Shown here one piece after another: positions 145 to 43,791 of a DNA stretch of 64,000 nucleotides; the stretch's first letter is position 1, and the number at the start of each line of letters is the position of its first letter. Origin of the DNA: a virus (lineage: Duplodnaviria; Heunggongvirae; Uroviricota; Caudoviricetes); the IMG/VR virus record IMGVR_UViG_3300028797_000094, positions 102,524-166,523 of that record, one strand, 5' to 3'. The position numbers were made by a program, and so were the translations under genes. The notes beneath the pieces are model-generated. The model saw nothing but the letters and a program-made list of their open reading frames with translations, had not been told where the DNA came from and made no database searches.

Positions 145-372
145 ATGAAACCTGTAGAACACATTGATGAAGTATGGGAATTCCTAGACCAATTCAAAAC
201 ACCTGAAGAATTAGAAAAAGCCTTCGGAGAAATTCCAAGCAAGTTTGGCAGCTTTGAAGTTGTTAATCCTAGCACTTATAAAGAAGATGGACAAATAGAA
301 ATTTGTAATTCATATTGGAATACTCAATATATGGATTATGACTATGACTATCATTGTGTGGAATTAGATTAA
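145..372 (+). CDS. hypothetical early protein (75 aa)
   Basis: ORF in track; RBS AAGGAGG 8 nt upstream; TAA stop; Trp encoded by TGG. Confidence 0.6.
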   Translation: MKPVEHIDEVWEFLDQFKTPEELEKAFGEIPSKFGSFEVVNPSTYKEDGQIEICNSYWNTQYMDYDYDYHCVELD

Positions 373-436
373 TGAAAACGTTTTCATAAAACTTTTTTAA
401 AAAAAGTATTTACAAATGTTTAAATATATGATATAA
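372..436 (+). promoter_or_regulatory. early promoter cassette 1: palindrome ATGAAAACGTTTTCAT, then TTTACA (408-413), 17 nt, TGATATAAT
   Basis: Near-consensus -35/-10; same architecture repeated six times. Confidence 0.7.
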
Positions 437-490
437 TGTATGTGTAAATAAGTGAATGAACAACACTCTAAAACAGAAAGGAAAAAAATT

Positions 491-1710: not shown

Positions 1711-2064
1711 ATGACAGATAATGAAAAAGAAATTATTATTAAATTTTTTGAATTAAAAGCAAAACAACTTATTTGTAAGATATGGTTAGCAACAAATCAA
1801 AAGCCCGGTTATGTCAATGACGAAATTAACTTAATGATGAAAGTATTAGGAATTCGAGATAAGCTTGAAAATGTAGAAAAAGAACTATTAGACTTACTTA
1901 AGTCAAATGAAAGTTTATTTACAGGAGCTGATCTTGAAGCTTTAGCAAATGAGCAAGAGTTTAAAGTTTCTATTAAAAAGCAAGAAGAGTTTTCAAAAGA
2001 ACTATTAGGTTATGAAACAACTATAGAAGATTTATTTGAAAAACTTGAAAAGCGCGGTTATTAA
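1711..2064 (+). CDS. hypothetical early protein
   Basis: ORF in track; RBS GGAGG; downstream of early promoter 1651-1679. Confidence 0.55.
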   Translation: MTDNEKEIIIKFFELKAKQLICKIWLATNQKPGYVNDEINLMMKVLGIRDKLENVEKELLDLLKSNESLFTGADLEALANEQEFKVSIKKQEEFSKELLGYETTIEDLFEKLEKRGY

Positions 2065-2078
2065 GGAGGATTAATAAT

Positions 2079-2276
2079 ATGAAAGAAACAGAAAAACAAA
2101 AAAGAATAAAAGAAGAATTGATATTATTAAATAGAAGAGTAGAAAGACTTACAGAAGAGATCTCAAACTGTATGAACGAAATTGTCGTAATTACAGAAAT
2201 TAACTTGTGCTTAGAATCAATTTTAAAATTAAAAGAAGAATATGCTTATGCAGAAAATAGAGTAAAAGGAAATTAA
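2079..2276 (+). CDS. hypothetical coiled-coil protein
   Basis: ORF in track; RBS AAGGAGG. Confidence 0.5.
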   Translation: MKETEKQKRIKEELILLNRRVERLTEEISNCMNEIVVITEINLCLESILKLKEEYAYAENRVKGN

Positions 2277-2280
2277 AATT

Positions 2281-2592
2281 ATGATGGAAGATGTAAATGC
2301 ATTTATTACAACAGTTGCTTTAACAGCTGCAAAGTTTTATAAACATGAACTAAACGCTGAAGAAAAAAAGGAATTTGATAAAGCTTATAATGATGGAGCT
2401 TATGAAGCTTTTTTTGCCAGTGTATGTAAACATAGATTGGATACAGCAGGTAGACCATCAGGTGTAGGTATGATAGTTGAACCATATAATTATTTTGATA
2501 GATATGAGTTAAAAAAATATGGAATTAGTTCAACAAAAGATTTAATAAATCAAATAGCAAATAAATATAAGTGTTATATTATGCAAGTATAA
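2281..2592 (+). CDS. hypothetical early protein
   Basis: ORF in track; followed by hairpin terminator 2593-2622. Confidence 0.5.
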   Translation: MMEDVNAFITTVALTAAKFYKHELNAEEKKEFDKAYNDGAYEAFFASVCKHRLDTAGRPSGVGMIVEPYNYFDRYELKKYGISSTKDLINQIANKYKCYIMQV

Positions 2593-2622
2593 GAAGATGT
2601 ATAAATGCTACATCTTCTTTTT
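2593..2622 (+). terminator. intrinsic terminator: hairpin AGATGTA...TACATCT plus T-run
   Basis: Dyad followed by TTTTTT. Confidence 0.55.
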
Positions 2623-2629
2623 TATTATC

Positions 2630-2960
2630 CAAAAGATGTAGATCACTTAATCCATGTTTTAGTGGTTGCTAAAGCATGATGAAGATGATGAAGATGCAGA
2701 TGCAGTAGATCTACAAGTATTGGATAAAGCTTCATCTACATCTGAAAAATTAGTGGTCGAGCATCTGGATTATCTGATACAGAGTCTGACAGAGTCTGAT
2801 AGAGTCTGACAGAGTCAAGAGAGTCTGATCTACAGACTCTGATCTGTCGATGTAGAAATTTTAGTGGTTGAGCGATCATACAGATACTGATCTGTTAAAG
2901 CGCATCAGAGCTTAAGCGCATCGGAACCTGCAAAGCGCATCGGAGTCGCCGATTAAAGTG
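2630..2960 (+). repeat. array A: three ~90-110-bp units, each with its own dyad or direct repeats and ending in (A)TTTTAGTGGTYG; GATC-rich
   Basis: TTTTAGTGGT/AATTAGTGGT at 2657, 2747, 2859; internal repeats GAGTCTGACAGAGTCTGATAGAGTCTGACAGAGTC and GCGCATCAGAGC/GCGCATCGGAAC/GCGCATCGGAGTC; 6 GATC sites. Confidence 0.6.
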
Positions 2961-3022
2961 AAAGCGCTTTCATAAAAAAGTTTAAAAAAACTATTTACAA
3001 GTTGAACTATTTATGATATAAT
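2958..3022 (+). promoter_or_regulatory. early promoter cassette 3: GTGAAAGCGCTTTCAT, then TTTACA, 16 nt, TGATATAAT
   Basis: As cassette 1. Confidence 0.65.
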
Positions 3023-3053
3023 ATTATTGTAAAATAAAAAAGGAGAATAAATT

Positions 3054-3206
3054 ATGAAACGAATTAAGTTTAAGTATCGTGATGCAATGTCTAATTTTGA
3101 ATGGCGAGAACAAGAATGTGTTTGTTCAAGTGTCGAAGAATGTATTAAATGGTATGGTCTCGGTGAAGACTGTGATTACAAAATTTTAAGTGTAGAGGAT
3201 ATTTAA
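3054..3206 (+). CDS. hypothetical small Cys-containing protein (50 aa; below track cutoff)
   Basis: AGGAGAATAAATT-ATG directly downstream of early promoter 2995-3022; TAA stop overlaps the next start. Confidence 0.45.
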   Translation: MKRIKFKYRDAMSNFEWREQECVCSSVEECIKWYGLGEDCDYKILSVEDI

Positions 3207-3207
3207 T

Positions 3208-3387
3208 ATGCCAACAAAATTTTATGTTTATTTATATCATCCTTATGGTGTTAGTTTAATTGGGTCGGGAAGTATTGAGCATTGTCAAGAAGTTAAAGCA
3301 AAGAAAGATGCTGAATGGAAACCTGGTTATATGTGGTCTACAGAAATATTAGATCATAAAATTGAAACTTATGATATGTGGGACTAA
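3208..3387 (+). CDS. hypothetical small protein (59 aa; below track cutoff)
   Basis: ATG 1 nt after the preceding stop; open to TAA; followed by hairpin GGGACT...AGTCTC. Confidence 0.4.
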   Translation: MPTKFYVYLYHPYGVSLIGSGSIEHCQEVKAKKDAEWKPGYMWSTEILDHKIETYDMWD

Positions 3388-3436
3388 AAAAAATAGTCTC
3401 ACATATTGTATAATAATATGAAGAGGTAAATGAATT

Positions 3437-3694
3437 ATGTTGAATATGAAACAATTACACAATGAACAAAAGCAATGGTTATTTGATAAAGGTTATGTTG
3501 ATGCAAAAGTCTTAGATGCTTGTGTAGAAAATGGTTGGCAAACTTATTATGTTAATTGTTTTAATTGGTTGGTAGATAATGAAGGTAATAATGGTTGGTA
3601 TCATTTAATTTTACAGTCAAAGGAAAGCGGAAACATTTCATATAATATTGAAATAAACTTAAGAAAAGACTATGAAAAATTAATGTCAATTTAA
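3437..3694 (+). CDS. hypothetical protein
   Basis: ORF in track; middle-type promoter TGTATAAT at 3407-3414; RBS GAGG. Confidence 0.5.
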   Translation: MLNMKQLHNEQKQWLFDKGYVDAKVLDACVENGWQTYYVNCFNWLVDNEGNNGWYHLILQSKESGNISYNIEINLRKDYEKLMSI

Positions 3695-3934
3695 TGTCGG
3701 AGCCCAAATTTGGCCCACACCGCGTTTAAATAAATTAAATATAAATTATAGAGTAAGAAAAGAAAATACGACACAAGTCAAATATTGGCTTGTGGCTTAT
3801 TGATAAGGTATTATTTACGAATGATACTTTATCAATATGCTCGAAAGTATTCGTTCATAGTTTTCATAATTCATTACTCTTTCATAGGAAAGGTGCTATC
3901 AGAAATGGTAGCATCTTTTCTTTTACTACACAGA

Positions 3935-4545
3935 CAGTAGATCATGTAGCTTCATCTGGATTATCCAATTTTAGTGGTGCAGACTTCTACATCGACAGAT
4001 CATGATGAATGATCTAACAGACTGTTCTGTCGATTCATCATGTTGGATTATCCAATTTTAGTGGTCGCTACGCATCAGATAGCTTTACAGTTACTGTATC
4101 TACACGCATCGTAGCGTGCAAGTAGCCGCATCGTAGCATGCAGATACACGCATCAGAACATGCAGAGTCTGTATGCAGCGTTAAAATTAGTGGTTGCAGT
4201 AGCTTTACATCATGTTGATGAAGTAGATCTACAGAGAGATCTGTCATGATGATTCATCTACATCGAGCTATTTTAGTGGTCAGATAGAGATAACTGTTAT
4301 CTACATCGATAGATCATGTAGCTTGATTCATCTACATCAGAGTCTGATGTGCTGTTTTTAGTGGTCAGAAGAATAGATCATGTAACTGATCAGTAACTGA
4401 TCTAGAGAAGATCTAGAGAAATTTGACTTCAACTTGTTACATGATCTGTACATGATCTGTTAAAGCTTTATCCAGTTTTAGTGGTTAATAGATCATGACA
4501 GTATCTGATGTAGCTGAAGATGATCTATGACTGTCAGGTTTTTTT
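3935..4545 (+). repeat. array B: six units (86-131 bp) ending in TTTTAGTGGT, two with identical 21-mer GGATTATCCAATTTTAGTGGT; recurring words CTACATCGA, TAGATCATG, GTAGATCTACAG; 14 GATC sites
   Basis: Motif ends at 3975, 4064, 4195, 4281, 4375 and 4482; each unit has its own inverted repeat, e.g. CATCGACAGATCATGATGAATG...TCTGTCGATTCATCATG. Confidence 0.6.
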
Positions 4546-4570
4546 CAATGACGTTTTCAATGAGAAATTT

Positions 4571-4646
4571 ATGAAAGCGTTTTCACAGTTCTTTTTTAAA
4601 AAAGTTTATAAAAACTATTTACAAATAAATAAGAATATGATATAAT
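4571..4646 (+). promoter_or_regulatory. early promoter cassette 4: ATGAAAGCGTTTTCAC, then TTTACA, 17 nt, TGATATAAT
   Basis: As cassette 1. Confidence 0.7.
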
Positions 4647-4708
4647 ATTATTGTAATTGTGTATAACATATTACATAAAAAAATATTTATAGAAAGTGAG
4701 TTTAAATT

Positions 4709-5164
4709 ATGAACGAAAAAACATTTAAAGATTATTTAGAAAGAGTTAAGAAAAGTTTTGATACTGAATTTACTCAAGCAGAAAAACTATCTTGTTCTGG
4801 CAACTGTGACGGAACACTTCACGTATTTGAAATCTATGCTGAAGATAAACATCCAGAAGATACTGACTTTATTGATAACTATGTTGATTACTTTGATGAA
4901 GACTGGTATCAAGAATTAGAAGATGAATATTTAGATTACTTTATGAATACTATTGATGAAATTGAAAGTCAATTAACTGATGAAGAGTTTGAAGAAATTA
5001 CAAATGACTACTATTCACCAAAAACTGATTTTGATAAGTTTGAAGAAATTATGTTAAAATGTATTTTAGCAGCACCAGAATTTAGACGTGAGATAACAAG
5101 TGAAGATCAAGAAATAGTTGCAAAAGTTTTAAGAAGTTTAAAGAAGTTTAAGAATCAAATTTAA
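4709..5164 (+). CDS. hypothetical highly acidic protein (D/E/Y-rich)
   Basis: ORF in track; downstream of early promoter 4618-4646. Confidence 0.55.
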   Translation: MNEKTFKDYLERVKKSFDTEFTQAEKLSCSGNCDGTLHVFEIYAEDKHPEDTDFIDNYVDYFDEDWYQELEDEYLDYFMNTIDEIESQLTDEEFEEITNDYYSPKTDFDKFEEIMLKCILAAPEFRREITSEDQEIVAKVLRSLKKFKNQI

Positions 5165-5178
5165 GTTGAAGTAAGATT

Positions 5179-5258
5179 TATGAAAACGTTTTCATAAATC
5201 TTTTTTTAATTTACTATTTACATTTTTCCAATAATGTGATATAATTATATTGTATAAT
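5179..5258 (+). promoter_or_regulatory. early promoter cassette 5: TATGAAAACGTTTTCATA, then TTTACA, 16 nt, TGATATAAT, immediately followed by a middle-type TTGTATAAT box (tandem -10 elements)
   Basis: As cassette 1, plus the second box at 5251-5258. Confidence 0.6.
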
Positions 5259-5278
5259 AAATAAAGGAGAGTATGAAT

Positions 5279-5689
5279 ATGAGTTTTCAAAAATGTAAAA
5301 GTTTAAAAGTAAGCGAACGTGTTTTCGATTTGGTAGCAGAAGAACTTGACTTTGATGCAAGTGAAAACCATGTTAAGATTGATGGTTGGTTTGAAACATT
5401 TAATAATTGTAGAGAACAAGGTTTAGTTTTATTTATAGATTCAGTTGATTTTGAAAATGAAAATAAAACTGAAGGATGGTTAAAAGTTTGGGTTTGTGAA
5501 GCAAGAAACTCAGATGAGATATTAGTTATAACTTCGACAGATAGAAAAGACTGTAATATTCATAATATGTTTTCAGAAGAAGCCTATAATAATAGAAAAT
5601 ATTTTGCTTACAATGAAGAACATAAAGCAGCTGATTATATTATAAATAAAGTTAGAGAAACATTCGCCGAAGAATATGGGAGGAAATAA
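5279..5689 (+). CDS. hypothetical protein (second ATG chosen for RBS spacing)
   Basis: ORF in track (5273); AAAGGAGAG lies 9 nt before 5279. Confidence 0.5.
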   Translation: MSFQKCKSLKVSERVFDLVAEELDFDASENHVKIDGWFETFNNCREQGLVLFIDSVDFENENKTEGWLKVWVCEARNSDEILVITSTDRKDCNIHNMFSEEAYNNRKYFAYNEEHKAADYIINKVRETFAEEYGRK

Positions 5690-5691
5690 CT

Positions 5692-6099
5692 ATGAGTGAT
5701 TATGTAAGATATAAAGAAATAATGTATCCAATTACAGAAGAAGATATTAAGAAGATTGGTTTCAATGATTTTGAAGATTATTGGGATACATTTAGTTGGA
5801 ACTATGAAGAGAACGATAACTTTGAAGTTCAACGACCTATTGCCAAAGTTAATGGTGAATATGTTGATAACTATTATCTTTGCTATATTTTAAAATATGA
5901 ATATGGGGCTAACTGTGATGACTTCGGTAGAAGCAGACCATTAACTACTGCTGAGCAAGAAAAGTATAAAGAAATCTTTAGCAAGAAACTTAAAGATGTT
6001 GATCCATCGAAGTTTAGATTAGTTGACTTCTGTTATTACAATGGTTGTGATGCACCCGATTATTATTTAGAAGAAGATGATTTTAATAATGAGGTTTAA
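5692..6099 (+). CDS. hypothetical acidic protein
   Basis: ORF in track; RBS GGGAGG. Confidence 0.5.
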   Translation: MSDYVRYKEIMYPITEEDIKKIGFNDFEDYWDTFSWNYEENDNFEVQRPIAKVNGEYVDNYYLCYILKYEYGANCDDFGRSRPLTTAEQEKYKEIFSKKLKDVDPSKFRLVDFCYYNGCDAPDYYLEEDDFNNEV

Positions 6100-6101
6100 T
6101 T

Positions 6102-6431
6102 ATGGCAAGACAAAAGAATTATTATGTTAACTATAAAGAAATTGAAACTGGTAAAATATCTAAAGGTTATTTAACTCAAGGTAAATGTGAAAGAAGTGCT
6201 TTGTTTACTTTAGAACTTCATATGGATAAAACTGGTTGGGAACTAAATAGAATAACTGAAATATCTGATGAAGTATATAATAGACTAAAGAACTTAGAAA
6301 GAATTAAAAAAGAAAAGGAACACCAAGAGTGGCTTGCAAATGGTGGTAGAGAAAGACTACAACAAAAGTTAGCTAACATTGCTGCTTTAAATGCAATGAT
6401 TGATGGACCTTTTGGAAAGAATGGTTTATAA
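6102..6431 (+). CDS. hypothetical protein
   Basis: ORF in track. Confidence 0.5.
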   Translation: MARQKNYYVNYKEIETGKISKGYLTQGKCERSALFTLELHMDKTGWELNRITEISDEVYNRLKNLERIKKEKEHQEWLANGGRERLQQKLANIAALNAMIDGPFGKNGL

Positions 6432-6443
6432 GGAGGACTAATT

Positions 6444-6725
6444 ATGAAGAAACTATTTATTATAATTTTATCTATTGTTTGTTTATTATTTATCTCGGCC
6501 ACTTTAACTGGTTGTAATTTAGAAGTTGTTGATACTAACTATAAGTTCGATACTGTCCATATCTATGAAACTGGAAAGTGTTATAAGATTAAAACTTGGC
6601 GAGACTTTGAAGATGGAGATCAACTACAAGTAACGTTAGAAGATGGAACAGTATTATTAATTCATTCTACTGATTGTGCATTAGTTCACGGCGACTGTGT
6701 ATTATGTAAGGATAAGGAAAAATAA
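6444..6725 (+). CDS. putative lipoprotein
   Basis: Signal peptide MKKLFIIILSIVCLLFISATLTG-C with lipobox LTGC; RBS AGGAGG. Confidence 0.55.
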   Translation: MKKLFIIILSIVCLLFISATLTGCNLEVVDTNYKFDTVHIYETGKCYKIKTWRDFEDGDQLQVTLEDGTVLLIHSTDCALVHGDCVLCKDKEK

Positions 6726-6727
6726 CT

Positions 6728-7051
6728 ATGAAGAAACTATTTAATTTCTTAGGCTTTTTATTTCAAGCAAGTTTTGTAGTAATATTAATTTTTAATTTAA
6801 TTAAAACTGGTGAAATAGAAGATCCAGGTTTTTGGGACTATGCTTATATTATAGTAGATATAATTATAATGATTCCTCTTGTTAGTTATATGGCAGTCGA
6901 ACATTTAATTACTTTTATTATGTATACTATTAGAGATGTTAAGAAAGAACTAATTAAGTTAGAAGAACAAGAAATAAAAGAAGAAAAAGAAAAAGAAGAA
7001 AAATTAAAACAATATGATTTACAATGGAAAATCTATAAAGAAGATAAATAA
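6728..7051 (+). CDS. putative membrane protein with KE-rich tail
   Basis: Two hydrophobic segments in the translation; ORF in track. Confidence 0.5.
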   Translation: MKKLFNFLGFLFQASFVVILIFNLIKTGEIEDPGFWDYAYIIVDIIIMIPLVSYMAVEHLITFIMYTIRDVKKELIKLEEQEIKEEKEKEEKLKQYDLQWKIYKEDK

Positions 7052-7075
7052 AGAAATTGAAAAGGAGACTTAAAT

Positions 7076-7267
7076 ATGTTAGTTAAAGATATTCCTGATG
7101 GAAGTATAGTATGGAATGGTTATAGTGTTTTAGGAATCAAAGGAGCGACTCTTGATCCTGTATATGATGAATGCACAGTAGTTCAAGAGCCAGGTAATCC
7201 AATTGATTTCAGTATAGTGAAGAACGATACATGGAAAGCTGTGAGAAATAGTTTAAAGAAATTTTAA
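7076..7267 (+). CDS. hypothetical protein
   Basis: ORF in track; RBS AAAGGAG. Confidence 0.5.
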   Translation: MLVKDIPDGSIVWNGYSVLGIKGATLDPVYDECTVVQEPGNPIDFSIVKNDTWKAVRNSLKKF

Positions 7268-7285
7268 AATTTTAGAAATTTATAT

Positions 7286-7293
7286 TGTATAAT
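7286..7293 (+). promoter_or_regulatory. middle-type extended -10 (TTATTGTATAATAAT) upstream of the tRNA-like/ncRNA island
   Basis: Motif TATTGTATAAT recurs ~12 times, usually right after a hairpin terminator and 30-40 nt before a start codon. Confidence 0.5.
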
Positions 7294-7299
7294 AATAAG

Positions 7300-8130
7300 T
7301 AGTTGTAGAAACACCTTTATAAAAGAATATAAGAATATGACTATCGACGGGTAGTATGACTTAGAAGGTATTATAGAGGAAGGGTTTGAAAGCGGATGCG
7401 AGGCATGTAAGGTCCTACGTCGTAGTTTGGAGCCTAAGAGAAAATTCCGGAATATCTTGTGTATCTTACGCTGGAGTCAATTCGAATTATACGGCCTACG
7501 ATTACTTCGTCGTAGTGAATCTACTATTATAGCTCAGTAGGTAGAGCGGCCGACAATTGTCGGTGATAAACAGCGCGCGACAGCCTTGGTTCGAATCCAA
7601 GTGATAGTAGATCGACTACGGCGACTGATCATCGTCATAATAAAAATTCCTCTATAAAGAAGACCTACTGGTAATGGACTTATAGACTAATGTTGAGAGT
7701 TCTGGAAGAGTCAGTAGGTTGAGGTGGGAGCCATAGCCCAGCAACATTAGGCATAAAACATGGACAGAGACCTGGCTAATAACCGGAGATGCAATGCTGT
7801 AGCTGGAGGCAGCTTAGATATATTACTACTGATATAGTATATATTGAACCAATATTCGAGGCGAAGACATTCTTCATTACTATGCTTTAAATCCCAGTAG
7901 CACGACCTGTATCAGCAGGCGAAATGTGAAATGTGAACGGTACTATTTTTATTATTAGTGGTTAGCCAACGACGAATAAGATCTTTACAACACGGTCTGT
8001 TGAATAAGCGTTGGACAGGAACTTTAGCATCTCAAAGCTAAAAAAGAATTTAGAATCTCAAAACTAAATTCCCAAGAAAGGTAAGCTCGGCCGTTAAACC
8101 TTTACACTGATATTAAGAATAGTTTTTTTA
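7300..8130 (+). ncRNA. GC-richer non-coding island downstream of middle promoter 7286-7293; no ORF in any frame; contains a tRNA-like gene and several local dyads
   Basis: Composition visibly shifted from the ~70% AT background; six-frame track empty; repeated CGTCGTAG words; ends at the early-promoter cassette 8143-8199. Confidence 0.4.
7523..7609 (+). tRNA. tRNA-like gene with atypical anticodon arm; candidate suppressor, isotype undetermined
   Basis: 7-bp acceptor stem ACTATTA/TGATAGT; canonical D-arm GCTCAGTAGGTAGAGC; canonical T-arm CTTGGTTCGAATCCAAG. The central segment is the perfect palindrome CCGACAATTGTCGG plus ~19 extra nt, so no standard 7-nt anticodon loop is visible by eye. Confidence 0.45.
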
Positions 8131-8142
8131 TTTTATTTAATC

Positions 8143-8199
8143 TATGAAAGCGTTTTCATAAAATAAATCGTTTACAAATGTTTTTATTTGTGGTATAAT
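8143..8199 (+). promoter_or_regulatory. early promoter cassette 6: TATGAAAGCGTTTTCATA, then TTTACA, 17 nt, TGGTATAAT
   Basis: As cassette 1. Confidence 0.7.
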
Positions 8200-8234
8200 A
8201 TTATTGTAAATGATTAATGAATGAGGTGTGAATT

Positions 8235-8879
8235 ATGTATATCTTTTGGATGATTGTTGTTATTCTTATTTGTGTATGGTGTATAATTGCTTACCCAGTT
8301 ATAAATGCAATTAAAACTAATAGCGAGAAAAAAAGAAAAGAAAAAGAATTTAAAAAGAATGAAGAAGAAAGGCTCGCTTATTTACAAAGCGATAAGTATA
8401 GACAAGAACAAGAAAGACTTGCACAAGAAAGAAAGCATGAAGAAGAACTTGCTAAACGTAGAGCAGCTTATGCTGAGCAACAAAGACAAAAAGCAATTGC
8501 TGCTAAGCGAGCAAGAGCTTTAGCTGAAGCTAAGTATTTAGCTGGCTTTGCTACTATGTCTGTTAAAGAATTTTTTGCTTTACGTGAAAAGAAAAGAAAT
8601 ACAGATAACTTTACTGGCGTTTACATTCTACATAATGAAACAAAGAATATGTATTATGTTGGGCAAGCAACTAAAATATTTGATAGAGTTAATAATCATT
8701 TTACGGGCAAAGGTAATGGTAATGTTTATGCAGATTATAAATATAAAAATATATTTACAATTAAACTATTGCCGTTAGCTAAAAGTGAATTTACTTCATT
8801 AGATAAAATGGAAAAGTATTATATAAATAAATTTAATGCAAATACAAAAGGTTATAATAAAACTGCTGGAAATAATTAA
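8235..8879 (+). CDS. GIY-YIG nuclease-domain protein with N-terminal TM helix and charged coiled-coil
   Basis: GVYILHNETKNMYYVGQATKIFDRVNNHF matches the GIY...YIG...R...N motif; downstream of early promoter 8171-8199. Confidence 0.55.
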   Translation: MYIFWMIVVILICVWCIIAYPVINAIKTNSEKKRKEKEFKKNEEERLAYLQSDKYRQEQERLAQERKHEEELAKRRAAYAEQQRQKAIAAKRARALAEAKYLAGFATMSVKEFFALREKKRNTDNFTGVYILHNETKNMYYVGQATKIFDRVNNHFTGKGNGNVYADYKYKNIFTIKLLPLAKSEFTSLDKMEKYYINKFNANTKGYNKTAGNN

Positions 8880-15126: not shown

Positions 15127-15154
15127 TATGATTTAAAAAAATGAGGTATAGCTT

Positions 15155-17032
15155 ATGGAAAACTTTACTGATGCATTAGTTAATGACAATATTATAGTAG
15201 CAGGTGAACCGCTTGACTTATCTAAATGCCGAGCAATTCAGACTGATGTTAAAGACATTAGAGGTGAATATGAAACTAACTACTGTATATTATATAGTCA
15301 AACAAGAGATGCTGAGCCAATATTAACAAGAGTTCAAATAAGAACTTTAATAATTAAAGAAGTAGATGGTAGACATTTTGCTCTTGGTAAGCAAGGTAGA
15401 AAAACTATGCATTTGCCAGGTGGTGGCTATGATGGAGCTAAAGATAATGGCGACCCTTGTAATACTGCTAAACGTGAAGCCTGAGAAGAATTTAATTATA
15501 ATTTAACTAATGTAAAAGACTTACATTTATATTCTTGAAAATATAGAAAAGATAAATGGGTAGAACAACATGTTAAAAATGATGAAGATAAATGATATGG
15601 CTATTTAACTATTTTAATAGTTGCTGACTATAATGGTTTATCAGATAATAATAGACCAGATGAAAGAGGCCACTGAGAATGATATCCAATAGAAGTATTT
15701 AAGAAAAATGATTTTTATAATCAAGCATTATCCTCACTAAATTTGAATGAAGCTATTCATGCAAATAAGCCTGGTAGAGATGATTTAGGTGAAATTTCTT
15801 ATTTATGTGATTCATTACAAACACTTAGAATTATTCTTTCAACTATGGAAATTCAAAAAACATATGTTAAAGAAGTTAGATGAAAACCGCAAGATGCAAA
15901 AAGAGGATATTCATCAGATAATCATAAACAATATTCTTTATCAACATCTACTAATTTAACTGGGCATGCTAAACGTAGACCTGAAAGATGAGGTTTTGGT
16001 GTTATATTAGATGGACATAGATTATCTCAATACTATAATTTAGTTCCATATAATCATGCTTATTATAAATTACCAGACCAATATATTACAAAAATAGTTA
16101 AATTAAAAGATGGTAGAGTTATTCTTAATATTAGTTATTATGGCAATCGTGAAGTACAAAATGGTGAATGACTTTATGACTATATTGTAGATTATATTGA
16201 TACTCATCCTAAATATAGTGAAGCAGCTAGAACACTAGATGACTATGTTGATTCAAAAAATCCAAGTAAATGAAAATATAGATGAAACTTATTTAAGCAT
16301 GATGATCGCTTTGCTAATATTACTCCAGATGAAATAGAAGATTTACGTTCTTTTTCGACAAATCCAATATCAAAAAATTGTCTACAACTTAAGAGACTTG
16401 ATAGACTTGATGACGTACTTGAACATTTAGCTAAATATTCAAATTTTAATGAAGAAGAAGAAAGAATTTGATTAGAAGATGAGCTATTAAACTTTGTGCA
16501 AATTCCACAAGATACTTTAGTTGGTGTTATTTTACCAAATTATTTTAAAGAAGACTACGATTTAAATAAACCTACAAATGTATATTTAGCTTGAATTAAA
16601 CAATTTGTAGCACAAAATAATTTAAAAGTTATTTGACATGAATATACACACAAAATTTATAAAAAAGAATTAGCAACTGGACAAGCTGAAGATGAAGAAC
16701 AAAGATTTAATGATTTGTTTAAAAGATTGTCTCCTGAAAGCATTGTAGACAGAGCTAAAGACTTAGTAAATAAAGTTAGTCTTAAAAAATATAGAGAAAT
16801 ACTACCAAAGGCACAAGTTGCAACAGCTATAGTTAAAAAAGCTATTAAAGCTTGTATGCAAGATCTAACTACTGAAAATTATGATGAAAAATATAAACAA
16901 GCTTTTGATATGATAGTAGATGATGCCTTTGATTGTAAGTTAAGTTATGATAAAAGTAGTTTAATAAATAATACTAGTTTAAAACATTTATTTAACTATT
17001 ATGTTCCAGATCCTCCAGCAGAAAATAATTAA
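15155..17032 (+). CDS. 626-aa late protein translated with TGA=Trp (~15 in-frame TGA); N-terminal Nudix-like motif
   Basis: Track ORFs 15155..15484 and 16715..17032 share a frame; the intervening 1.2 kb has only TGA stops in that frame; GGYDGAKDNGDPCNTAKREAWEEF approximates the Nudix box; late promoter box at 15115-15126. Confidence 0.6.
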
Positions 17033-22400: not shown

Positions 22401-24224
22401 GCCTGATCTTAAACCATCTATTTCTGAATAAGCTTCAACAATTGTATCATCTGTAATGGCAAATTGTCCAGTATATAAACTAAAATTGCCACTTTCATTT
22501 AATCTATAATATGTGTCAGCTCCGGTTTCATTTGTAGTGATAGAAACATATCTACCAGTACAAGAAATAGTTGGAGGTAATACATTTGTTAATTTTACAA
22601 TTGAGAAATTTTTAATTGTAATATTTGAGTATCTATATGGATCACCATTAGCATCCATTGCGTAACCTAAACAAACCTTCAAATATTTTAAATCTTCAAT
22701 ATCTGGGAATTTATTTGAGGCTGTAAAAATAACAGCACCAGTTCTCATATTTTGACAGATAAAGTTGTTATTTGGAAGTGTTGGGTCATAAGTTATTTTT
22801 AATACATATTCTGCAGTATTATTAGTCATTGCAGTTGGGTTAATTGTAGTATTAGTATTACTACCTGTTGCAAATTGAGTACCTAAAATAACATATTTAT
22901 TAGTTCCAGTTTGTCTTATTTGAAAGCCATACCATGGAGATGGTGTAGCTCTTTTTGCAGTTAAAATATTATGGTGATTTTCATCTTGGTTTGCTGGCTG
23001 ATCTAAGAAATTAATTACAAAGTCAATATCGCAGATAAAGCCTCTTGTTGGGTCAAAAGCATAGTACTCTGTATTAATACCATTTTCAATTTCTTTACCT
23101 TCACCACCAGAACCTGATGTATCAATTTCATAACCTGTAACTACAGGATCGCCATTTTCATCATATTCGATTTCTTGAGTAGAACTATTTCCTGATGTAT
23201 CAACAGCATTATTAGTTGTTGAAGTTGGATCACCGTTTGCATCATAATTATTTGTTTGACTTGTACTAGAGCCATCTGTATTTTCAACAGTTGTACTATC
23301 TGAACTACCACTAACATCACCATTTTCATCATAATTTGTAGTAGTAGTTTCAGTAGTTACAGCACCAGTTTCCTGGTCTGGGGCAGAAACTTCAGTACTT
23401 GATTCAGTACTAGTACCATCAGCATTATTAGTAACTGTATTAGTCTCACTAGAACCATCGGCATTTGTCTGTGTTTCAGTAGTTTCGTTTGAACCATCTT
23501 GGTTTACAGTTATTGTAGTAGTTGTACTTGAACCATCTTGGTTTGTTGTTGTTTCTTCAGTTGTAGTACTAGTTGAACCGTCTTCATTAGTTGTTTGTGA
23601 AGTAGTTGTTTCAGTTGTAGCGCCAGTTTCTGGGTCTGTTGTAGTAGTTGTAGTTGTAGTTGTTACTGAGCCGTCTTCATTAACTTCAGTAGTGGTTGAT
23701 GAATTAGCTTCATAATATAAAACAATTTCTTTAGTTGCAGTTTGATTTTGATAAACTGCTTGTAGTGTAATAGTACCAGTTGCTAAAATTGTAATAGCAC
23801 CAGTATTATCAATTGTTGCATAATTATTACCACTTGTGATACTTCATGTTGGAGTAACTACAGTTGAATTATATCTTGCAATAGCATTTCCAGTAGTTCC
23901 AGTAATTGTATCAGCACATTCAATATTTAATTGATTATCATAAGAAACAGTTATATCAATTAGTTCAGTTTCTTCTTCATATTCACATTGAATTGTAATA
24001 TTTTCACTTACGACACCTTCATTAATAGTAACTTTACCAGTGCTAGGATTTAAAGAAACATAAGAAGCACCATTCATTAAAGACCATGTACCATTAACAG
24101 TTTGTCCATCATATTTACATGTACAATAAAAATATTTACCAGTAAAAGTTGAATCAGCAATTATTTCAAGATTATGTTCAGTTACGAGTACAATACTTAA
24201 TAATCTTCTTCTAATTATTCCCAT
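19434..24224 (-). CDS. 1596-aa structural protein (tail fibre/tailspike-like) with GH2-family glycoside hydrolase domain, Thr-rich mucin-like linker and BspA-like Cys-containing repeats; TGA=Trp
   Basis: Track minus ORFs 20097..20579, 21351..21875, 22095..22829 and 23844..24224 are all in one frame and separated only by TGA. GH2 signatures: CNFIRTAHYPHP, SIVFWGLANE, PHLWNGKADPHLYDITL. RBS TAGGAGG precedes the ATG at 24224. Confidence 0.65.
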
Positions 24225-32585: not shown

Positions 32586-32597
32586 TTTGCTAAATTA
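32586..32597 (+). promoter_or_regulatory. late-promoter box TTTGCTAAATTA
   Basis: As above. Confidence 0.55.
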
Positions 32598-32620
32598 ATA
32601 GTAAAAGGAGACTTTTATTT

Positions 32621-33277
32621 ATGACAAATTTACAACCAATTGATGTGTTAAATTGAATAGACTCAGATTGGCAATGACAATCTTATTTTGATCAACTTAT
32701 AAAACCAGAAAATTGAACACAGTTGCATTATGGCAGTAGGGGACAAGTTGGTGATAAGCCATTACTTTCTACAATGTTTGATTCAAAAGAAACAATTGTT
32801 AGCTATTTTGTAAAACGTATACCTGCTAATTCTTATGCTTCTGCTGAACGTGCTGGAAAATGAATTTTTTATAATTTATTAAATCTTAATATTTTAAATG
32901 AATTTCTTTTAGCTGCTAAAGACGTAAAAATTCCAAGTGAAGAAGAAATTTTTAATACTAATGTACTTGGACCAAAATATCAAGTTGGATGAATTAGTAC
33001 TGGTGGAGATACTATAAATGCATCTTTTATTTTTCGTGGCAAAGGTGATGGAAGTAGAGAAAGTAGAAATCAAAAAAGAATAATGTGTGATCTTACTTTA
33101 TTATCTTTTGATCAATTTTATAGTGCACATGCAAAAAATATTTCTGATTTTTCACAATTATTAATAAAAATAAAATATGAATTACAAGATGGTATGAGAA
33201 AAATCTGACAAAGAACTCTTAATACCACATGAAAAACTATCTTAGTTGATACACGATCTTTAGCACCAAAAAGATAA
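32621..33277 (+). CDS. hypothetical 218-aa protein with 9 TGA=Trp codons
   Basis: Late box 32586-32597 then AAGGAGAC-N7-ATG; the only stops in frame before TAA at 33275 are TGA (e.g. LNWIDSDWQWQSY). Confidence 0.55.
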
Positions 33278-35611: not shown

Positions 35612-35648
35612 TTTGTAAAACCTTGAAGAATTAATAAAGGAGAAAATT

Positions 35649-36473
35649 ATGAAAAAAGAATATAGTTTACTAGAAGCTTTTGATGACTTAAATAAGTTAG
35701 ATGAAGTTAGTTATACACCACGACAATCGAGCTATTATTCTCGCCAAGCACGAGCACGATATGATAATCAACAAGAATTCTGAAAAGCTGCTAGAGAAGG
35801 AAAACTTGACTTATTTCGTTTTAATGAAGGATATTCTAATTTATTGTGAAATATGATTGAAAAAACGCCAGGTGTTGAATTTGAAGATATTTTTATGCCA
35901 CTTGGGAATGTTTATAAGTCACTTGGCATAAAAGACAATTCATTTGATGATATTAATACTTTAAAAGATAAGTCTTGTTATGGAGCAATTAAAAAATTAG
36001 ATGAGGCTTTTCCAGATAATTGAGCAGTTAAAGCATTAAAAAAAGTTTGGTGGATGCTATTTAAGGATAATATTGAGCCTGCTGAGCTTATTTATGCTAA
36101 GAAACAGCACTGAAAAGATAGTTTAAAGCAAGCAATATTAGACCTTCCTGGTGTTGATGATATACTAAAGAAATGTGTGCAAGGCGAAAGGACATATGAC
36201 TTTACTATTGATAGTACAGAAGTTTATTTGACACATAAATGATATAATGATGTTTATGATGAATATGCTGATTTAAATTGACATACTACAGAGGATTACT
36301 GAGTACAAGCAATCATAAAATATAGAAATGATCCCCAAGAAATACTTTCACCAGAAGATGCTGCTACTGAAATAAATAGAAAGTGAAAAGCAAAAGATTA
36401 TGAAGAGCGCACTAATGCTCGTGATATGGAGGATCGTTGAACAGCTGGTCATGAAGCTATACATATATATTAA
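35649..36473 (+). CDS. hypothetical 274-aa protein with 11 TGA=Trp codons
   Basis: Late box 35600-35611; RBS AAGGAGAAAATT-ATG; codon-by-codon translation reaches TAA at 36471 with only TGA interruptions. Confidence 0.55.
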
Positions 36474-39208: not shown

Positions 39209-39376
39209 ATGGAAGCTTTAAACTTGTTAAATCGACGCATTGAGCGATTAAATGAGGAGATTAAAGCCAATGCTCCAACTATTATTATTAAGTATGAACT
39301 TAAGCTTGTACAAGAAGCAATAGATAAATTAGTTGAAGTTTATGGCTTACCTGAAGAAGAAAAAGTAGCTGAATAA
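39209..39376 (+). CDS. hypothetical 55-aa coiled-coil protein (below track cutoff)
   Basis: RBS AAGGGAGA; ends at hairpin terminator GTAGCTG...CAGCTAC. Confidence 0.4.
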   Translation: MEALNLLNRRIERLNEEIKANAPTIIIKYELKLVQEAIDKLVEVYGLPEEEKVAE

Positions 39377-39393
39377 AAGCAGCTACTTTTTTA

Positions 39394-39405
39394 TTTGCTA
39401 AATTA
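39394..39405 (+). promoter_or_regulatory. late-promoter box TTTGCTAAATTA
   Basis: As above. Confidence 0.55.
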
Positions 39406-39423
39406 TTTAGTGGAGAATTTATT

Positions 39424-39948
39424 ATGAATAAGGACTTTTTAGATATTTATGAAAAATTAAGTAAATTAAATGAAAAATGATATACAGGTGAAGATCCATC
39501 TTATGAAAAAATTTGATATTCAGATTCAATTTATGAATTTAGAAACTTCATTCAAAATGTTGTAAATGAAGGAAAAATAAAAGGTCTAAGATTATGTATT
39601 TCAAATGGTCATTATTTAGCTGCAAGAGCTTCTGATTTAAATCATGATGTAATGCGTGAAGTACTTTATGAAACAACTGGAATAAGAATGACTTGAAAAG
39701 ATTCTGAAGGCAGTATAATAGGAATTCCAAAAGCAGAAAATTTTGAGTCTGATAATTATGAAATTCCTGATTTATTGGAAGATGACCCAGATTATGATAT
39801 TTATAAAGAATATTCTGGTAAAGTAATTGCAGATTGTGGTAATTTTGAAGTATATTTAATTAGGCGTAAAAGTGAGACTGATTGGAAAGGTACTGCAACA
39901 GAAGAAGCTTTTAGACCATTTATAAAAGGATATTATATTCATAAATAA
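39424..39948 (+). CDS. hypothetical 174-aa protein with 3 TGA=Trp codons
   Basis: Late box 39394-39405; RBS GGAGAATTTATT-ATG; codon walk reaches TAA at 39946. Confidence 0.5.
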
Positions 39949-39960
39949 GGAGAGTTTATT

Positions 39961-40509
39961 ATGGAAATTAAAAGACAATATGACCATGGAAAACTTGGAA
40001 ATTTTTTATTTGATGTTTGTGCAGGTTGAACAAAATTTTTAGTAAAGCATAGATGATTATATTATTTACTTGCTTGCACTTGAGGAATTATTCAAACTGT
40101 AGTTGGACTAATTATTACATTAGTTATGTTATATGCAAAATTATTTTTTAGAGAATATATTCATTTTAAAAAGTATAAATGGATATATGCAATTTCAGCT
40201 GGCCCAGAATACTGGGGTGGTTTTGAAATGGGATTAATGTTTGTTAGAGATCAAAAGTCAACAGAAAGCTATTTAGACACGCATGAATTTGGACACACTA
40301 TTTGTCAATTATGAACAGGCCCATTCTATTTATTTACTATTGCATTACATTCAGCAACAAGATATTGGGTTCAAGAATTTAGAGAAAGAAAAGGAAAGAA
40401 AAATCCTCCATATGATCAATACTGAGCTGAAGATGCGGCAAGTCAATGTGGTAAATATGCTGCTTGATATATTGATGAACATAAGAAAGGTAAGAAAGTA
40501 AATGATTAA
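39961..40509 (+). CDS. membrane zincin-like protein (HEFGH motif), TGA=Trp used
   Basis: RBS AAGGAGAG; two hydrophobic helices then GGFEMG...THEFGHTICQLW (HExxH); 5 in-frame TGA. Confidence 0.5.
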
Positions 40510-43240: not shown

Positions 43241-43780
43241 ATGGCAAAATTTGTTAACATAAAAACTCAATTAAACACTGTTCCAATAAATAATTTAAAG
43301 AAAGTAATTTCTACTATTTATCAAGGCTCAAGTATTGTATTTACTTGTAAAGTTGGTGGAGATTTTAGAAAATTAGCTCAAGTTCTTTTCTGTTTTAATC
43401 AAGGTGATAATGAAAAAGAAAATGATAATGCTTATGAATATTCAGCATTTACTATTTTAGAAAGTGGTACTATTAAATGAAATGAATATTCAGAAGATGG
43501 TGTTTATTTTACAGGCACTTATGATGAACAGGGTAATATTACTGCAATTAATTTAGTTGGTAGTGCAGCTTTTACAGAAAAGTTTTATGAAAATGATTTT
43601 GATGATTTGATGGACTATAAAATTATTGCAATATATAATCCAAGAGTAGTTCCAAACGCTCCAGCAAGAATTATGAAACAACCATCTATTTTAGTTATCA
43701 GAGATGAAACTAAGAAGCAAGTAGCAATTTGTTCTGAAGATTTATTATGTTCAGAAGATTTATATTGTAGTGATAATTAA
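43241..43780 (+). CDS. hypothetical late protein (179 aa, 1 TGA=Trp)
   Basis: Track ORF 43241..43480 continues in frame through TGA to TAA at 43778. Confidence 0.5.
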
Positions 43781-43791
43781 GGAGAAAACTA

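What the first reader, a model, noticed from the sequence alone, without database searches (positions are those of the whole stretch)
2630..2960. Array A of hairpin units terminated by TTTTAGTGGT; GATC-rich
This non-coding stretch lies between a terminator and early promoter 3. It holds three units, each ending in the conserved (A)TTTTAGTGGT(Y)G. Each unit carries a different short tandem or inverted repeat: GAGTCTGACAGAGTCTGATAGAGTCTGACAGAGTC, GTCTGATCTACAGACTCTGATCTGTCGATGTAG, and GCGCATCAGAGC/GCGCATCGGAAC/GCGCATCGGAGTC. GATC occurs 6 times in ~340 bp, versus ~1 expected at this base composition. It is not explained by coding, promoters or terminators. Possibilities are a replication origin with iterons, binding-site decoys, or a small-RNA array.
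Basis: seen in the sequence. Interest (0 to 1): 0.7.

Follow-up and report, generated by a model that had tools for sequence, protein, structure and literature searches.

The report
Phage intergenic TTAGTGGT repeat arrays
Two non-coding stretches in the early region of a novel rumen/gut phage are degenerate tandem repeats whose only invariant part is the one-strand word TTAGTGGT; related phages carry similar elements in the same kind of terminator-to-promoter gap, the function is unknown (most likely protein-binding sites), and the GATC richness is a by-product.

Summary
TTAGTGGT occurs 10 times on the + strand between 2659 and 7955, against 1 other + copy and 1 - copy in 64 kb. There are 3 copies in array A, 6 in a second array B (3917-4560), and 1 in a tRNA-linked RNA locus. 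Both arrays lie between an intrinsic terminator and a strong early promoter. They are non-coding in codes 11 and 4 and match no Rfam family, tRNA, CRISPR or known phage DNA.

The GATC excess (20 observed, 3.4 expected from base composition) is fully predicted by the GAT/ATC-rich vocabulary (Markov expectation 21.8). Single units do not fold better than shuffles; only whole arrays do, equally on both strands.

The closest relative lacks arrays A and B. At least eight more distant phages carry related 160-470 nt elements in the same kind of slot, with the order CACTAAA, (TATCCAGAA)TTTAGTG, CACTAAA. In the three elements where both could be located, the last word sits exactly 35 nt before the -35 hexamer.

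My best reading (about 0.4) is a lineage-specific cluster of DNA protein-binding sites upstream of early promoters, tandemly expanded in this phage. A structured read-through RNA is the main rival (about 0.25). A replication origin is unlikely. Interest is moderate.

The parts
2591..2626 (+). Intrinsic terminator of the upstream early operon (11-bp stem AAGAAGATGTA/TACATCTTCTT plus T-run). Its stem already uses the array vocabulary (GATGTA/TACATC).
2620..2975 (+). Array A. It has four degenerate units. TTAGTGGT is at 2659, 2750 and 2861. Sub-repeats are GAGTCTGAYA x3.5 (2780-2816) and GCGCATCRG x3 (2897-2946). GC is about 38-40%, against about 27% in the flanks.
2958..3022 (+). Early-promoter cassette: palindrome TGAAAGCGCTTTCA, an A-rich tract, TTTACA (2994), 17 nt, then TATAAT. 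The same cassette precedes all six strong early promoters.
   Evidence: (D8, D16)
3886..3925 (+). Terminator (GGAAAGGTGCTATC...GGTAGCATCTTTTC plus T-run) that immediately precedes array B.
3917..4560 (+). Array B, the paralogue of array A, with seven units. TTAGTGGT is at 3971, 4058, 4187, 4273, 4358 and 4478. The extended word TTATCCA(A/G)TTTTAGTGGT is at 3960, 4047 and 4467. Sub-repeats have periods of 22 nt (4101-4164) and 11 nt (4383-4420 and 4438-4459). It contains 14 GATC.
4568..4646 (+). Early-promoter cassette downstream of array B (palindrome ATGAAAGCGTTTTCA, TTTACA at 4618, TATAAT).
7953..8111 (+). Tenth motif copy (TTATTAGTGGTTAGCCA). It starts a block that is nearly identical in three phage contigs, inside a promoter-driven, tRNA-containing non-coding locus (about 7295-8135). 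It is predicted to pair with CACTGATA at 8104.

Best explanation
Arrays A and B are tandemly expanded members of a lineage-specific family of non-coding elements. These elements fill terminator-to-promoter gaps in the early region of this group of rumen/gut phages.

The functional core is a short asymmetric word, TTAGTG(G), often extended to TATCCA-RWW-TTTAGTG. The rest of each roughly 86-nt unit drifts by slippage, small duplications and inversion of hairpin arms.

I think the word most likely acts on double-stranded DNA as the binding site of a sequence-specific protein, either a phage early regulator or a host factor. The arrays would then be multi-site regulatory or architectural regions upstream of early promoters P2994 and P4618. 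They could set, shut off or insulate those promoters.

Shown here:
- the arrays and the motif;
- selection on the motif;
- the gap position;
- membership of a family;
- fixed promoter register of one site in three relatives.

Inferred only: that the word is read on DNA, which protein reads it, and the regulatory outcome.
For: 1. The motif is under selection. The 8-mer is intact in all 9 array copies, while the aligned units average 34% column identity.
2. A family exists. Eight related contigs (L099, L222, L223, L226-L229, L231) carry a 160-470 nt element after a terminator; in seven of them that terminator ends a conserved 64-68-aa gene, and in L228 the gene was not compared. A recognisable early promoter follows in five; L223's differs, and L228 and L231 end at the contig edge. 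The elements share words with the window arrays: CATCTGGATTATCC, GATTCATCAT, and ATGTAGCTT(T)CATCTGGATAAAGCTT. TTAGTG/CACTAAA density is 10.6 per kb inside them, against 1.3 per kb outside.
3. In these relatives the word occurs in both orientations, at spacings from 3 to about 75 nt, without any covariation. In the three elements where both could be located, the last CACTAAA starts exactly 35 nt before the -35 hexamer (L099, L222, L229). L226 has a perfect 7-3-7 palindrome, CACTAAAATATTTAGTG. These are properties of DNA sites tied to a promoter.
4. No sigma-70-type promoter lies between the upstream terminator and either window array. None was seen by eye in the relatives' elements either. Yet the same phages do give their real non-coding RNAs a canonical promoter.
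5. Fold stability is the same on both strands once composition is allowed for. The units share no consensus fold.
6. Many sub-repeats have periods of 10, 11 or 22 bp.
7. The last motif copy lies 133 nt (array A) and 140 nt (array B) before the -35 hexamer.
Against: - The arrays are GC-rich islands (38-43%, against about 27%), like the genuine RNA genes of these phages.
- They contain no TATA or ATAT at all.
- The 10th copy, and a TTAGTGGATA word in the relatives' 600-nt promoter-driven RNA, lie inside transcribed structured RNA. There they form helices (UAUUAGUG/CACUGAUA, with a wobble-swapped variant in L095, and CCAC-loop-GUGG).
- In the window all nine array copies point the same way and have no inverted partner, unlike in the relatives.
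- Only 2-3 of the six strong early promoters have an array upstream.
- No DNA-binding protein could be named; the neighbouring proteins have no detectable domains.
- Motif spacings (85-129 bp) are not in helical phase.
Confidence: 0.4

Rival explanations
1. The arrays are structured non-coding RNA. They would be transcribed on the + strand, by terminator read-through, antitermination or an unrecognised phage promoter, as multi-hairpin RNAs. The repeated single-stranded UUAGUGGU tag would be a processing site or a multivalent binding site (sponge or scaffold) for a protein or RNA.
For: - The arrays are GC-rich islands in an AT-rich genome, as at the tRNA locus and the relatives' large RNAs.
- All copies are co-oriented with transcription.
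- Whole-array fold z-scores are -4.0 and -7.1.
- The motif is mostly unpaired at the 3' end of each unit.
- The 10th copy lies in a promoter-driven RNA locus and pairs with a downstream CACURRUA.
- In L098 a promoter-to-terminator RNA of about 560 nt occupies the same slot upstream of the homologue of the 151-aa gene.
- A T7 run at about 4537-4543 could end an array B transcript.
Against: - Each array starts directly at the T-run of a good terminator, with no promoter.
- Per-unit folds are not better than shuffles.
- The units share no consensus structure.
- The plus/minus fold difference equals that of shuffled sequence.
- There is no Rfam match even at E<=10.
- No significant antisense match exists to anything else in the window.
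- In relatives the helix strands never covary, and one of them is in fixed register with a promoter.
Confidence: 0.25
2. The arrays are neutral or selfish repeat expansions. Hairpin-prone DNA of the terminator/promoter cassette would have been amplified by replication slippage and cassette recombination, with no function for the phage beyond spacing.
For: - The closest relative (75-90% nucleotide identity in the flanks) lacks arrays A and B; the whole 1711-6443 segment is replaced.
- The units are full of micro-duplications and swapped arms, for example 18 nt at 2840-2857 that are perfectly complementary to 3985-4002.
- The restricted vocabulary explains the GATC count.
- The early region is hyperplastic and bounded by repeated promoter cassettes, like the T4-type PeSL cassettes (PMC2839356, PMC4122927).
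Against: - An 8-mer kept perfectly in 9 of 9 units, while the flanks have diverged to about 34% column identity, is not neutral.
- The same words and the same order recur in at least 8 divergent phages whose flanking proteins are only 45-70% identical.
- One kilobase of junk inside a densely packed early region would be unusual.
Confidence: 0.15
3. The arrays are a replication origin, with iterons plus an adjacent AT-rich unwinding region, activated by the neighbouring early promoter.
For: - Direct repeats are present, including three 20-22-bp copies of CRCGCATCRKARCRTGCA at a 22-bp spacing (4101-4164).
- TTATCCA (the first 7 nt of a DnaA box) occurs 5 times in the arrays.
- A region of 19-22% GC follows array B.
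- A strong promoter is adjacent, as at the T4 and T7 origins (my own knowledge).
Against: - Full DnaA boxes with up to 1 mismatch are at chance level in the window (25 found, 24.2 expected), and only 2 lie in the arrays.
- Cumulative GC skew rises steadily through the region.
- There are two arrays carrying several different mini-repeats, rather than one iteron type.
- The arrays are absent from the closest relative.
- No initiator, helicase or primase gene is adjacent; the neighbours have no domains.
- The GATC clustering is not specific.
Confidence: 0.08
4. The arrays are a CRISPR-like array, a type III antitoxin (ToxI-like) array, a degenerate tRNA array or a self-cleaving ribozyme array.
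For: - The layout of conserved word plus variable segment superficially resembles repeat/spacer arrays.
- The modal unit length of 85-87 nt is tRNA-like.
- Phages are known to carry pseudo-ToxI repeats (my own knowledge).
Against: - The conserved part is only 8-21 nt long. Spacing is irregular (85-129 nt), and the 'spacers' share vocabulary with each other.
- ARAGORN and Rfam find no tRNA, ribozyme or CRISPR-DR signal, even at E<=10.
- The ten neighbouring proteins have no significant Pfam domain, so no toxin is recognisable by Pfam; cas genes were not searched for specifically.
Confidence: 0.02

Closest known systems
Untranslated repeat regions of the phage T5 pre-early (first-step-transfer) region, including the injection stop signal region
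   Same: Both are virulent phages whose early region is driven by host-type promoters. [quoted passage not shown]
   Different: The T5 regions keep the same repeat order in nearly all T5-like phages and carry eight paired DnaA boxes. Here the closest relative lacks the arrays, DnaA boxes are at chance level, and a single one-strand 8-mer is the conserved feature. Whether this region lies in a terminal repeat could not be tested.
Mycobacteriophage L5 'stoperators': asymmetric 13-bp repressor sites in one orientation relative to transcription (my own knowledge, Brown et al. 1997)
   Same: Both are short asymmetric words in intergenic DNA, with all copies in one orientation relative to the direction of transcription. 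In both cases a plausible role is blocking or insulating transcription.
   Different: Stoperators are dispersed one per intergenic gap across the genome and have a known repressor. Here 9 copies are clustered in two arrays, no binding protein is known, and related phages carry the word in both orientations.
PeSL (promoter-early stem-loop) mobile regulatory cassettes of T4-type phages
   Same: Both are repeated promoter-plus-stem-loop cassettes that bound variable small early genes. Segments are swapped between close relatives at these cassettes (PMC2839356, PMC4122927).
   Different: PeSLs are cassettes of about 50-70 bp and correspond to the TGAAAGCGYTTTCA-plus-promoter unit here. The TTAGTGGT arrays are an additional element of 0.3-0.6 kb, upstream of some cassettes only.
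Iteron-type replication origins (lambda ori, P1 oriR) and GATC-rich sites such as P1 pac and oriC (my own knowledge)
   Same: Both show direct repeats, some at a 22-bp spacing, an adjacent AT-rich region and many GATC.
   Different: There is no single iteron family, no initiator gene next door and no skew change. The element is not conserved in the closest relative, and the GATC count is explained by the vocabulary.
REP/BIME intergenic repeat clusters of enterobacteria (my own knowledge)
   Same: Both are clusters of imperfect palindromes placed after operon ends. GTAG/CTAC-type words are frequent, and the elements vary between strains.
   Different: REPs are 35-40-nt units in alternating orientation, scattered over a bacterial chromosome and linked to a RAYT transposase. 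Here all copies sit within 5.3 kb of a phage genome, and no transposase is seen.

Membership tests
CRISPR array | Near-identical repeats of about 23-50 nt at regular spacing, separated by unique spacers | tested here: not met
   Only 8-21 nt are conserved. Spacings are 85, 86, 87, 91, 111, 120 and 129 nt. The intervening segments share words with each other.
Type III toxin-antitoxin RNA antitoxin (ToxI/CptI-like) | Tandem, nearly identical 34-45-nt repeats next to an endoribonuclease toxin gene | tested here: not met
   The units are heterogeneous and 62-129 nt long. The ten neighbouring proteins have no significant Pfam domain; among PHROGs one matches a family of unknown function.
Any Rfam RNA family or tRNA | Covariance-model match at or near the gathering score | tested here: not met
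   cmscan of 2500-8400 at E<=10 finds only the tRNA at 7523-7609. ARAGORN finds nothing in the arrays.
Iteron-type replication origin | Three or more copies of one 17-22-bp iteron in helical register | tested here: inconclusive
   One set of three 20-22-bp repeats at a 22-bp spacing lies at 4101-4164. It is only one of at least six different mini-repeats.
Iteron-type replication origin | DnaA boxes, an adjacent unwinding element and a skew or strand switch | tested here: not met
   TTATCCACA with up to 1 mismatch: 25 found against 24.2 expected, 2 of them in the arrays. Cumulative GC skew is monotonic. An AT-rich region is present, but it is the promoter cassette.
Iteron-type replication origin | Conserved in related phages as an essential cis site | tested here: not met
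   Arrays A and B are absent from IMGVR_UViG_3300021400_000048, which is 75-90% identical in the flanks.
T5-type untranslated repeat / injection-stop region | [quoted passage not shown] | tested here: met
   compared with 10.1101/866236.
T5-type untranslated repeat / injection-stop region | The same order of repeats in relatives, and paired DnaA boxes | tested here: not met
   The closest relative lacks the arrays. More distant relatives keep only the word order CACTAAA-TTTAGTG-CACTAAA. DnaA boxes are at chance level.
T5-type untranslated repeat / injection-stop region | Location in a long terminal repeat at the first-injected end, with DNA entry pausing there | not testable with these tools
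   The genome ends are unknown. The window is an internal piece of a contig of 0.2-1 Mb, and at least 8.9 kb lies upstream of it.
Stoperator-like repressor sites | An asymmetric site in one orientation relative to transcription | tested here: met
   10 of 10 copies between 2659 and 7955 are on the + strand, which is the coding strand of all neighbouring genes.
Stoperator-like repressor sites | Sites dispersed through the genome and a cognate repressor | tested here: not met
   The copies are clustered in three loci, with only 2 other copies in 64 kb. No repressor could be identified.
PeSL-type promoter/stem-loop cassette | A repeated stem-loop plus early promoter that bounds variable genes | tested here: met
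   This is met by the TGAAAGCGYTTTCA-plus-TTTACA-N17-TATAAT cassettes at all six strong early promoters. The TTAGTGGT arrays themselves are extra to that cassette.

The most novel reading that the evidence does not exclude
The arrays are a new kind of phage-encoded multivalent decoy. Nine tandem copies of a recognition word, on DNA or on read-through RNA, would titrate a host factor such as a regulator, a nucleoid protein or a defence sensor early in infection. In relatives, that factor would normally see a single structured site (CACTAAA...TATCCAGAATTTAGTG). The tandem expansion in this phage would then be the footprint of an arms race.
Probability: 0.12. Interest if true: 0.75.

Novelty: new variant of a known kind. 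Interest (0 to 1): 0.42.

Why it matters
If the word is a protein-binding site, these elements give a handle on how an uncultured group of large rumen/gut phages controls its early promoters. That group also recodes TGA and carries several large unknown RNAs. The elements also show a cis-element being amplified from one structured site to a nine-copy array. If the arrays turn out to be RNA, they would be a new phage non-coding RNA class with a repeated tag. Either way the finding is a lead rather than a solved mechanism, and it does not open a long-standing question directly.

Tried and rejected
1. Known phage DNA. Megablast and blastn of the arrays and of the tRNA locus against 50,697 phage records gave no match. 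tblastn of a 663-aa protein gave only remote hits.
2. Motif-pair pattern scans. 
3. Scans with conserved blocks of the tRNA-linked locus. These found three relatives in IMG/VR and nothing in GTDB genomes. The two of these contigs not seen before (L220, L221) lack TTAGTGGT.
4. Coding potential. This was rejected under code 11 and code 4.
5. tRNA, ribozyme or any other Rfam family. Rejected.
6. DnaA-box cluster. Rejected.
7. GATC-specific selection. Rejected.
8. Strand-specific RNA folding. The plus-minus energy difference equals that of shuffles.
9. A common fold for the units. RNAalifold predicts 0 pairs.
10. An anticodon-loop mimic (CCA-AUUUUAG-UGG). Only 4-5 of the 10 copies can form it.
11. 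A cis partner for the motif within the arrays. None was found, even allowing G-U pairs.
12. Antisense targets elsewhere in the window. The longest matches (<=14 nt) are within the null range.
13. SNPs between samples as a test of selection. 8 differences in 5.3 kb, none in the arrays; this is not significant, since about 1.5 would be expected there.
14. Literature search for the motif string. It returned only unrelated primers.

Full report
**What the window is.** The window is a 29.7% GC phage sequence with no close relative among 50,697 deposited phages. It encodes an anaerobic ribonucleotide reductase and an ATP-dependent ligase. Near-identical contigs occur in three other metagenome assemblies (ENA ERZ27257207 and ERZ27257203, Logan SRR10393135), and a 963-bp JGI contig (3300028887) overlaps only the region just after array B. 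The source contig is 0.2-1 Mb long. The first 8 kb is a typical early region. It holds small + strand genes, six strong TTTACA-17-(TG)nTATAAT promoters at 409, 1651, 2994, 4618, 5217 and 8171, and intrinsic terminators.

**Checking the observation.**
- TTTTAGTGGT occurs 7 times exactly, always on the + strand, between 2657 and 4485.
- The 8-mer core TTAGTGGT is at 2659, 2750, 2861, 3971, 4058, 4187, 4273, 4358, 4478 and 7955. There is only one further + copy (46664, in a gene) and one - copy (23307) in 64 kb.
- The finding is therefore one of two paralogous arrays: A (2620-2975, 3 copies) and B (3917-4560, 6 copies). A lone copy sits in a third non-coding locus.
- Spacings are 91 and 111 nt in A, and 87, 129, 86, 85 and 120 nt in B.
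- Each array starts at the T-run of a terminator (2591-2619; 3886-3921). Each ends at a conserved promoter cassette: the palindrome TGAAAGCGYTTTCA, an A-rich tract, then the promoter.
- Neither array is coding, even with TGA read as sense.

**Anatomy of the units.** The units are diverged copies of a module of about 86 nt.
- Their 3' parts align as (A/G)(C/A)TTCATCTACATC, a variable insert, then WTTTTAGTGGT.
- Overall column identity is 34%, while the 8-mer is invariant.
- Each unit carries its own micro-duplications: 10-nt GAGTCTGAYA x3.5, 22-nt CRCGCATCRKARCRTGCA x3, and 11-nt GTAACTGATCW and TACATGATCTG x2.
- Hairpin arms have been exchanged. For example, 2840-2857 is perfectly complementary to 3985-4002.
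- Several words are strongly one-stranded: TTAGTGGT 9:0, CGCATC 7:0, ATCTACA 8:1, AGAGTCTG 6:1.
- The arrays are GC-rich (38-43%, against about 27%) and contain no TATA or ATAT, against about 10 per kb elsewhere.

- *GATC.* There are 20 in the two arrays, against 3.4 expected from base composition and 1.76 per kb in the rest of the window. But the count predicted from the GAT, ATC and AT frequencies is 21.8. CATC, CAGA, TCTG, ATCT and CATG are similarly enriched. GATC is part of a restricted vocabulary, not a selected site.
- *Hairpin units.* Whole arrays fold better than dinucleotide shuffles (z -3.96 for A and -7.14 for B). The minus strands do so equally (-3.82 and -6.52). The plus-minus energy difference is exactly what shuffles give. 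Single units are not significant (z from +1.1 to -1.25; only 4366-4485 reaches -3.1). RNAalifold finds no shared fold.

**What the arrays are not.**
- They match no Rfam family at E<=10 and no tRNA.
- They lack CRISPR-like or ToxI-like regularity.
- Neighbouring proteins have no recognisable domain.
- DnaA boxes are not enriched, and there is no GC-skew turn.
- They have no antisense targets in the window.
- No cis partner for the motif exists in the arrays.

**Comparative evidence: the closest relative.** This is IMGVR_UViG_3300021400_000048, with 73% amino-acid identity in a 371-aa protein and 75-90% nucleotide identity in the flanks.
- Window 1711-6443 is replaced there by other small genes. 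Arrays A and B are therefore absent.
- It does have a gap element of about 130 nt with two GATGCGCC words, the complement of the array A word.
- Only the 10th motif copy is conserved. It opens a block, TTATTAGTGGTTAGCCA(G)ACGACGAATAAGATC..., that is nearly identical in three contigs. The roughly 330-700 nt before it differ completely between them.
- That locus has its own promoter and contains a tRNA or tRNA-like gene.
- The fold pairs UAUUAGUG with CACUGAUA. The relative has CACUAGUA there, which keeps the helix through swapped wobble pairs.

**Comparative evidence: more distant relatives.** Homologues of the 151-aa gene downstream of array B, and then of a 64-68-aa gene, led to eight contigs from other samples: L099, L222, L223, L226, L227, L228, L229 and L231.
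- Each has the layout small gene, terminator, GC-rich element of 160-470 nt; an early promoter follows wherever the contig extends far enough.
- The elements share words with the window arrays: CATCTGGATTATCC, GATTCATCAT, and ATGTAGCTT(T)CATCTGGATAAAGCTT.
- They have a common order: CACTAAA, then 3-46 nt, then (TATCCAGAA)TTTAGTG, then 59-75 nt of hairpin-prone sequence, then CACTAAA.
- In the three elements where both could be located, the last word starts exactly 35 nt before the -35 hexamer.
- Word density is 10.6 per kb inside the elements and 1.3 per kb outside.
- L226 has the minimal form, a perfect palindrome CACTAAAATATTTAGTG.
- The extended word TATCCA-RWW-TTTAGTG recurs in the window as TTATCCA(A/G)TTTTAGTGGT at 3960, 4047 and 4467.
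- The same core also sits in a conserved, promoter-driven RNA of about 600 nt in these phages, as CCAC(N)TTAGTGGATA.

**Interpretation.** Selection clearly acts on the word. The family has persisted over large divergence, and it lives in terminator-to-promoter gaps.

Arguments for a DNA site:
- There is no promoter for the element in the window arrays, and none was seen in the relatives.
- The word occurs in both orientations without covariation.
- One copy is in fixed register with the promoter.
- L226 has a perfect palindrome.
- Fold stability is strand-symmetric.
- Sub-repeats have 10-, 11- and 22-bp periods.

Arguments for RNA:
- The arrays are GC-rich and depleted of TATA.
- All copies are co-oriented with transcription.
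- The word occurs in helices inside bona fide RNAs of the same phages.
- In L098 a large RNA occupies the same slot.

I commit to a multi-site protein-binding region upstream of early promoters (0.40). A read-through structured RNA with a repeated tag is second (0.25). A neutral or selfish expansion follows (0.15), then a replication origin (0.08), with CRISPR-, ToxI-, tRNA- or ribozyme-type arrays essentially excluded (0.02). The remainder is for something not considered here.

**Comparison with known systems.**
- The best anatomical analogue is the set of three untranslated repeat regions in the T5 pre-early region (10.1101/866236). It differs in conservation and in its DnaA boxes.
- The one-orientation asymmetric word recalls mycobacteriophage L5 stoperators (my own knowledge).
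- The surrounding promoter and stem-loop cassettes behave like the PeSLs of T4-type phages (PMC2839356, PMC4122927).
- The arrays fail the membership tests for CRISPR, type III antitoxins, Rfam families and classical iteron origins.

**Verdict.** This is a real, non-random, lineage-specific cis-element family, tandemly expanded in this phage. The GATC emphasis and the origin reading are not supported, and the mechanism is unresolved. I rate it of moderate interest (0.42) and as a new variant of a known kind (phage intergenic repeat or regulatory arrays).

Noticed in passing
window 15152-17032, 23007-23720, 32594-33277, 35619-36473, 39328-41380, 43777-47337, 47833-55089, 56355-59048, 60099-61976: TGA appears to be a sense codon in a subset of genes. 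With TGA read through, giant ORFs appear: 2419 codons with 31 in-frame TGA, 1187 with 6, and 898 with 6. They have tail-fibre or adhesin-like sequence. Stop-free coverage rises from about 0.65 to 0.88-0.97 in the 32-56 kb bins (0.68 to 0.87 in the last bin). Most early and replication genes (NrdD and others) have no in-frame TGA. This is the pattern described for recoded gut phages (10.1101/2021.08.26.457843). No UCA-anticodon tRNA was seen in the window.
   Followed up: partly
window 7264-8135 (tRNA-like gene at 7522-7610): A promoter-driven, GC-rich (40-45%) non-coding locus. It contains an odd tRNA-like gene: Rfam tRNA at 47.5 bits, ARAGORN 'tRNA-???', a malformed anticodon loop and a long extra arm. 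The relative L095 has tRNA-Thr(TGT) at the same place. The 5' block (7300-7620) and 3' block (7953-8111) are conserved, and TTCGTCGT (about 7517) can pair with ACGACGAA (about 7970). The middle 330-700 nt is completely different in three contigs. In L086 it carries a 64-aa ORF and a second tRNA-like piece. There is no Rfam family for it. It may be a new tRNA-linked large RNA.
   Followed up: partly
L098:3785-4395, L222:235-830, L223:1-590, L226:1845-2470, L227:2093-2480, L229:1861-2480, L231:1618-2000 and 2262-2470: A conserved, promoter-driven structured RNA, about 600 nt in most contigs (shorter in L227), lies upstream of the 64-68-aa gene in the related phages. It has no Rfam match in the three contigs that were scanned (L098, L222 and L223 were not all scanned; L098 at gathering score). 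It contains an invariant CCAC(N)TTAGTGGATA hairpin. In L231 a promoter-plus-gene cassette (2073-2261) has been inserted into it.
   Followed up: partly
L220:2215-3590 (minus strand) and L221:720-1400: Two further IMG/VR jumbo-phage contigs (230 kb and 167 kb) share the 5' block GGAGTCAATTCGAATTATACGGCC. It is followed by different GC-rich structured regions of 0.65-1.3 kb. One of them ends in a T-arm/acceptor-like GCAGGTGCAAATCCTGCCGGCCCCTCCA. There is no Rfam hit at E<=0.1.
   Followed up: no
window 371-437, 1608-1679, 2958-3022, 4568-4646, 5175-5245, 8120-8199: All six strong early promoters carry the same upstream palindrome, (A)TGAAARCGYTTTCA(T), about 20-25 nt before the -35 hexamer, plus an A-rich tract. 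Segment swaps between relatives occur at these cassettes, as with the PeSLs of T4-type phages.
   Followed up: partly
window 7624-8076 versus L086:12916-13762: Two otherwise identical assemblies of the same phage (100% identity over 7.6 kb) differ by a complete replacement of the segment right after the tRNA-like gene. This suggests a strain-level recombination hotspot.
   Followed up: no
window 8920, 9590, 29960, 36680, 38050 (approximate): A second promoter class lies directly after terminators, upstream of presumed middle genes. It has the form (T)ATTGTATAATA, an extended -10 without a clear -35.
   Followed up: no
L090:7581-7998 and L093:9583-10000: In the 50%-identity relatives, a 418-nt non-coding stretch just upstream of the homologue of the 663-aa protein carries GCTTATTTCAA three times. 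This may be another repeat element, and it was not examined.
   Followed up: no
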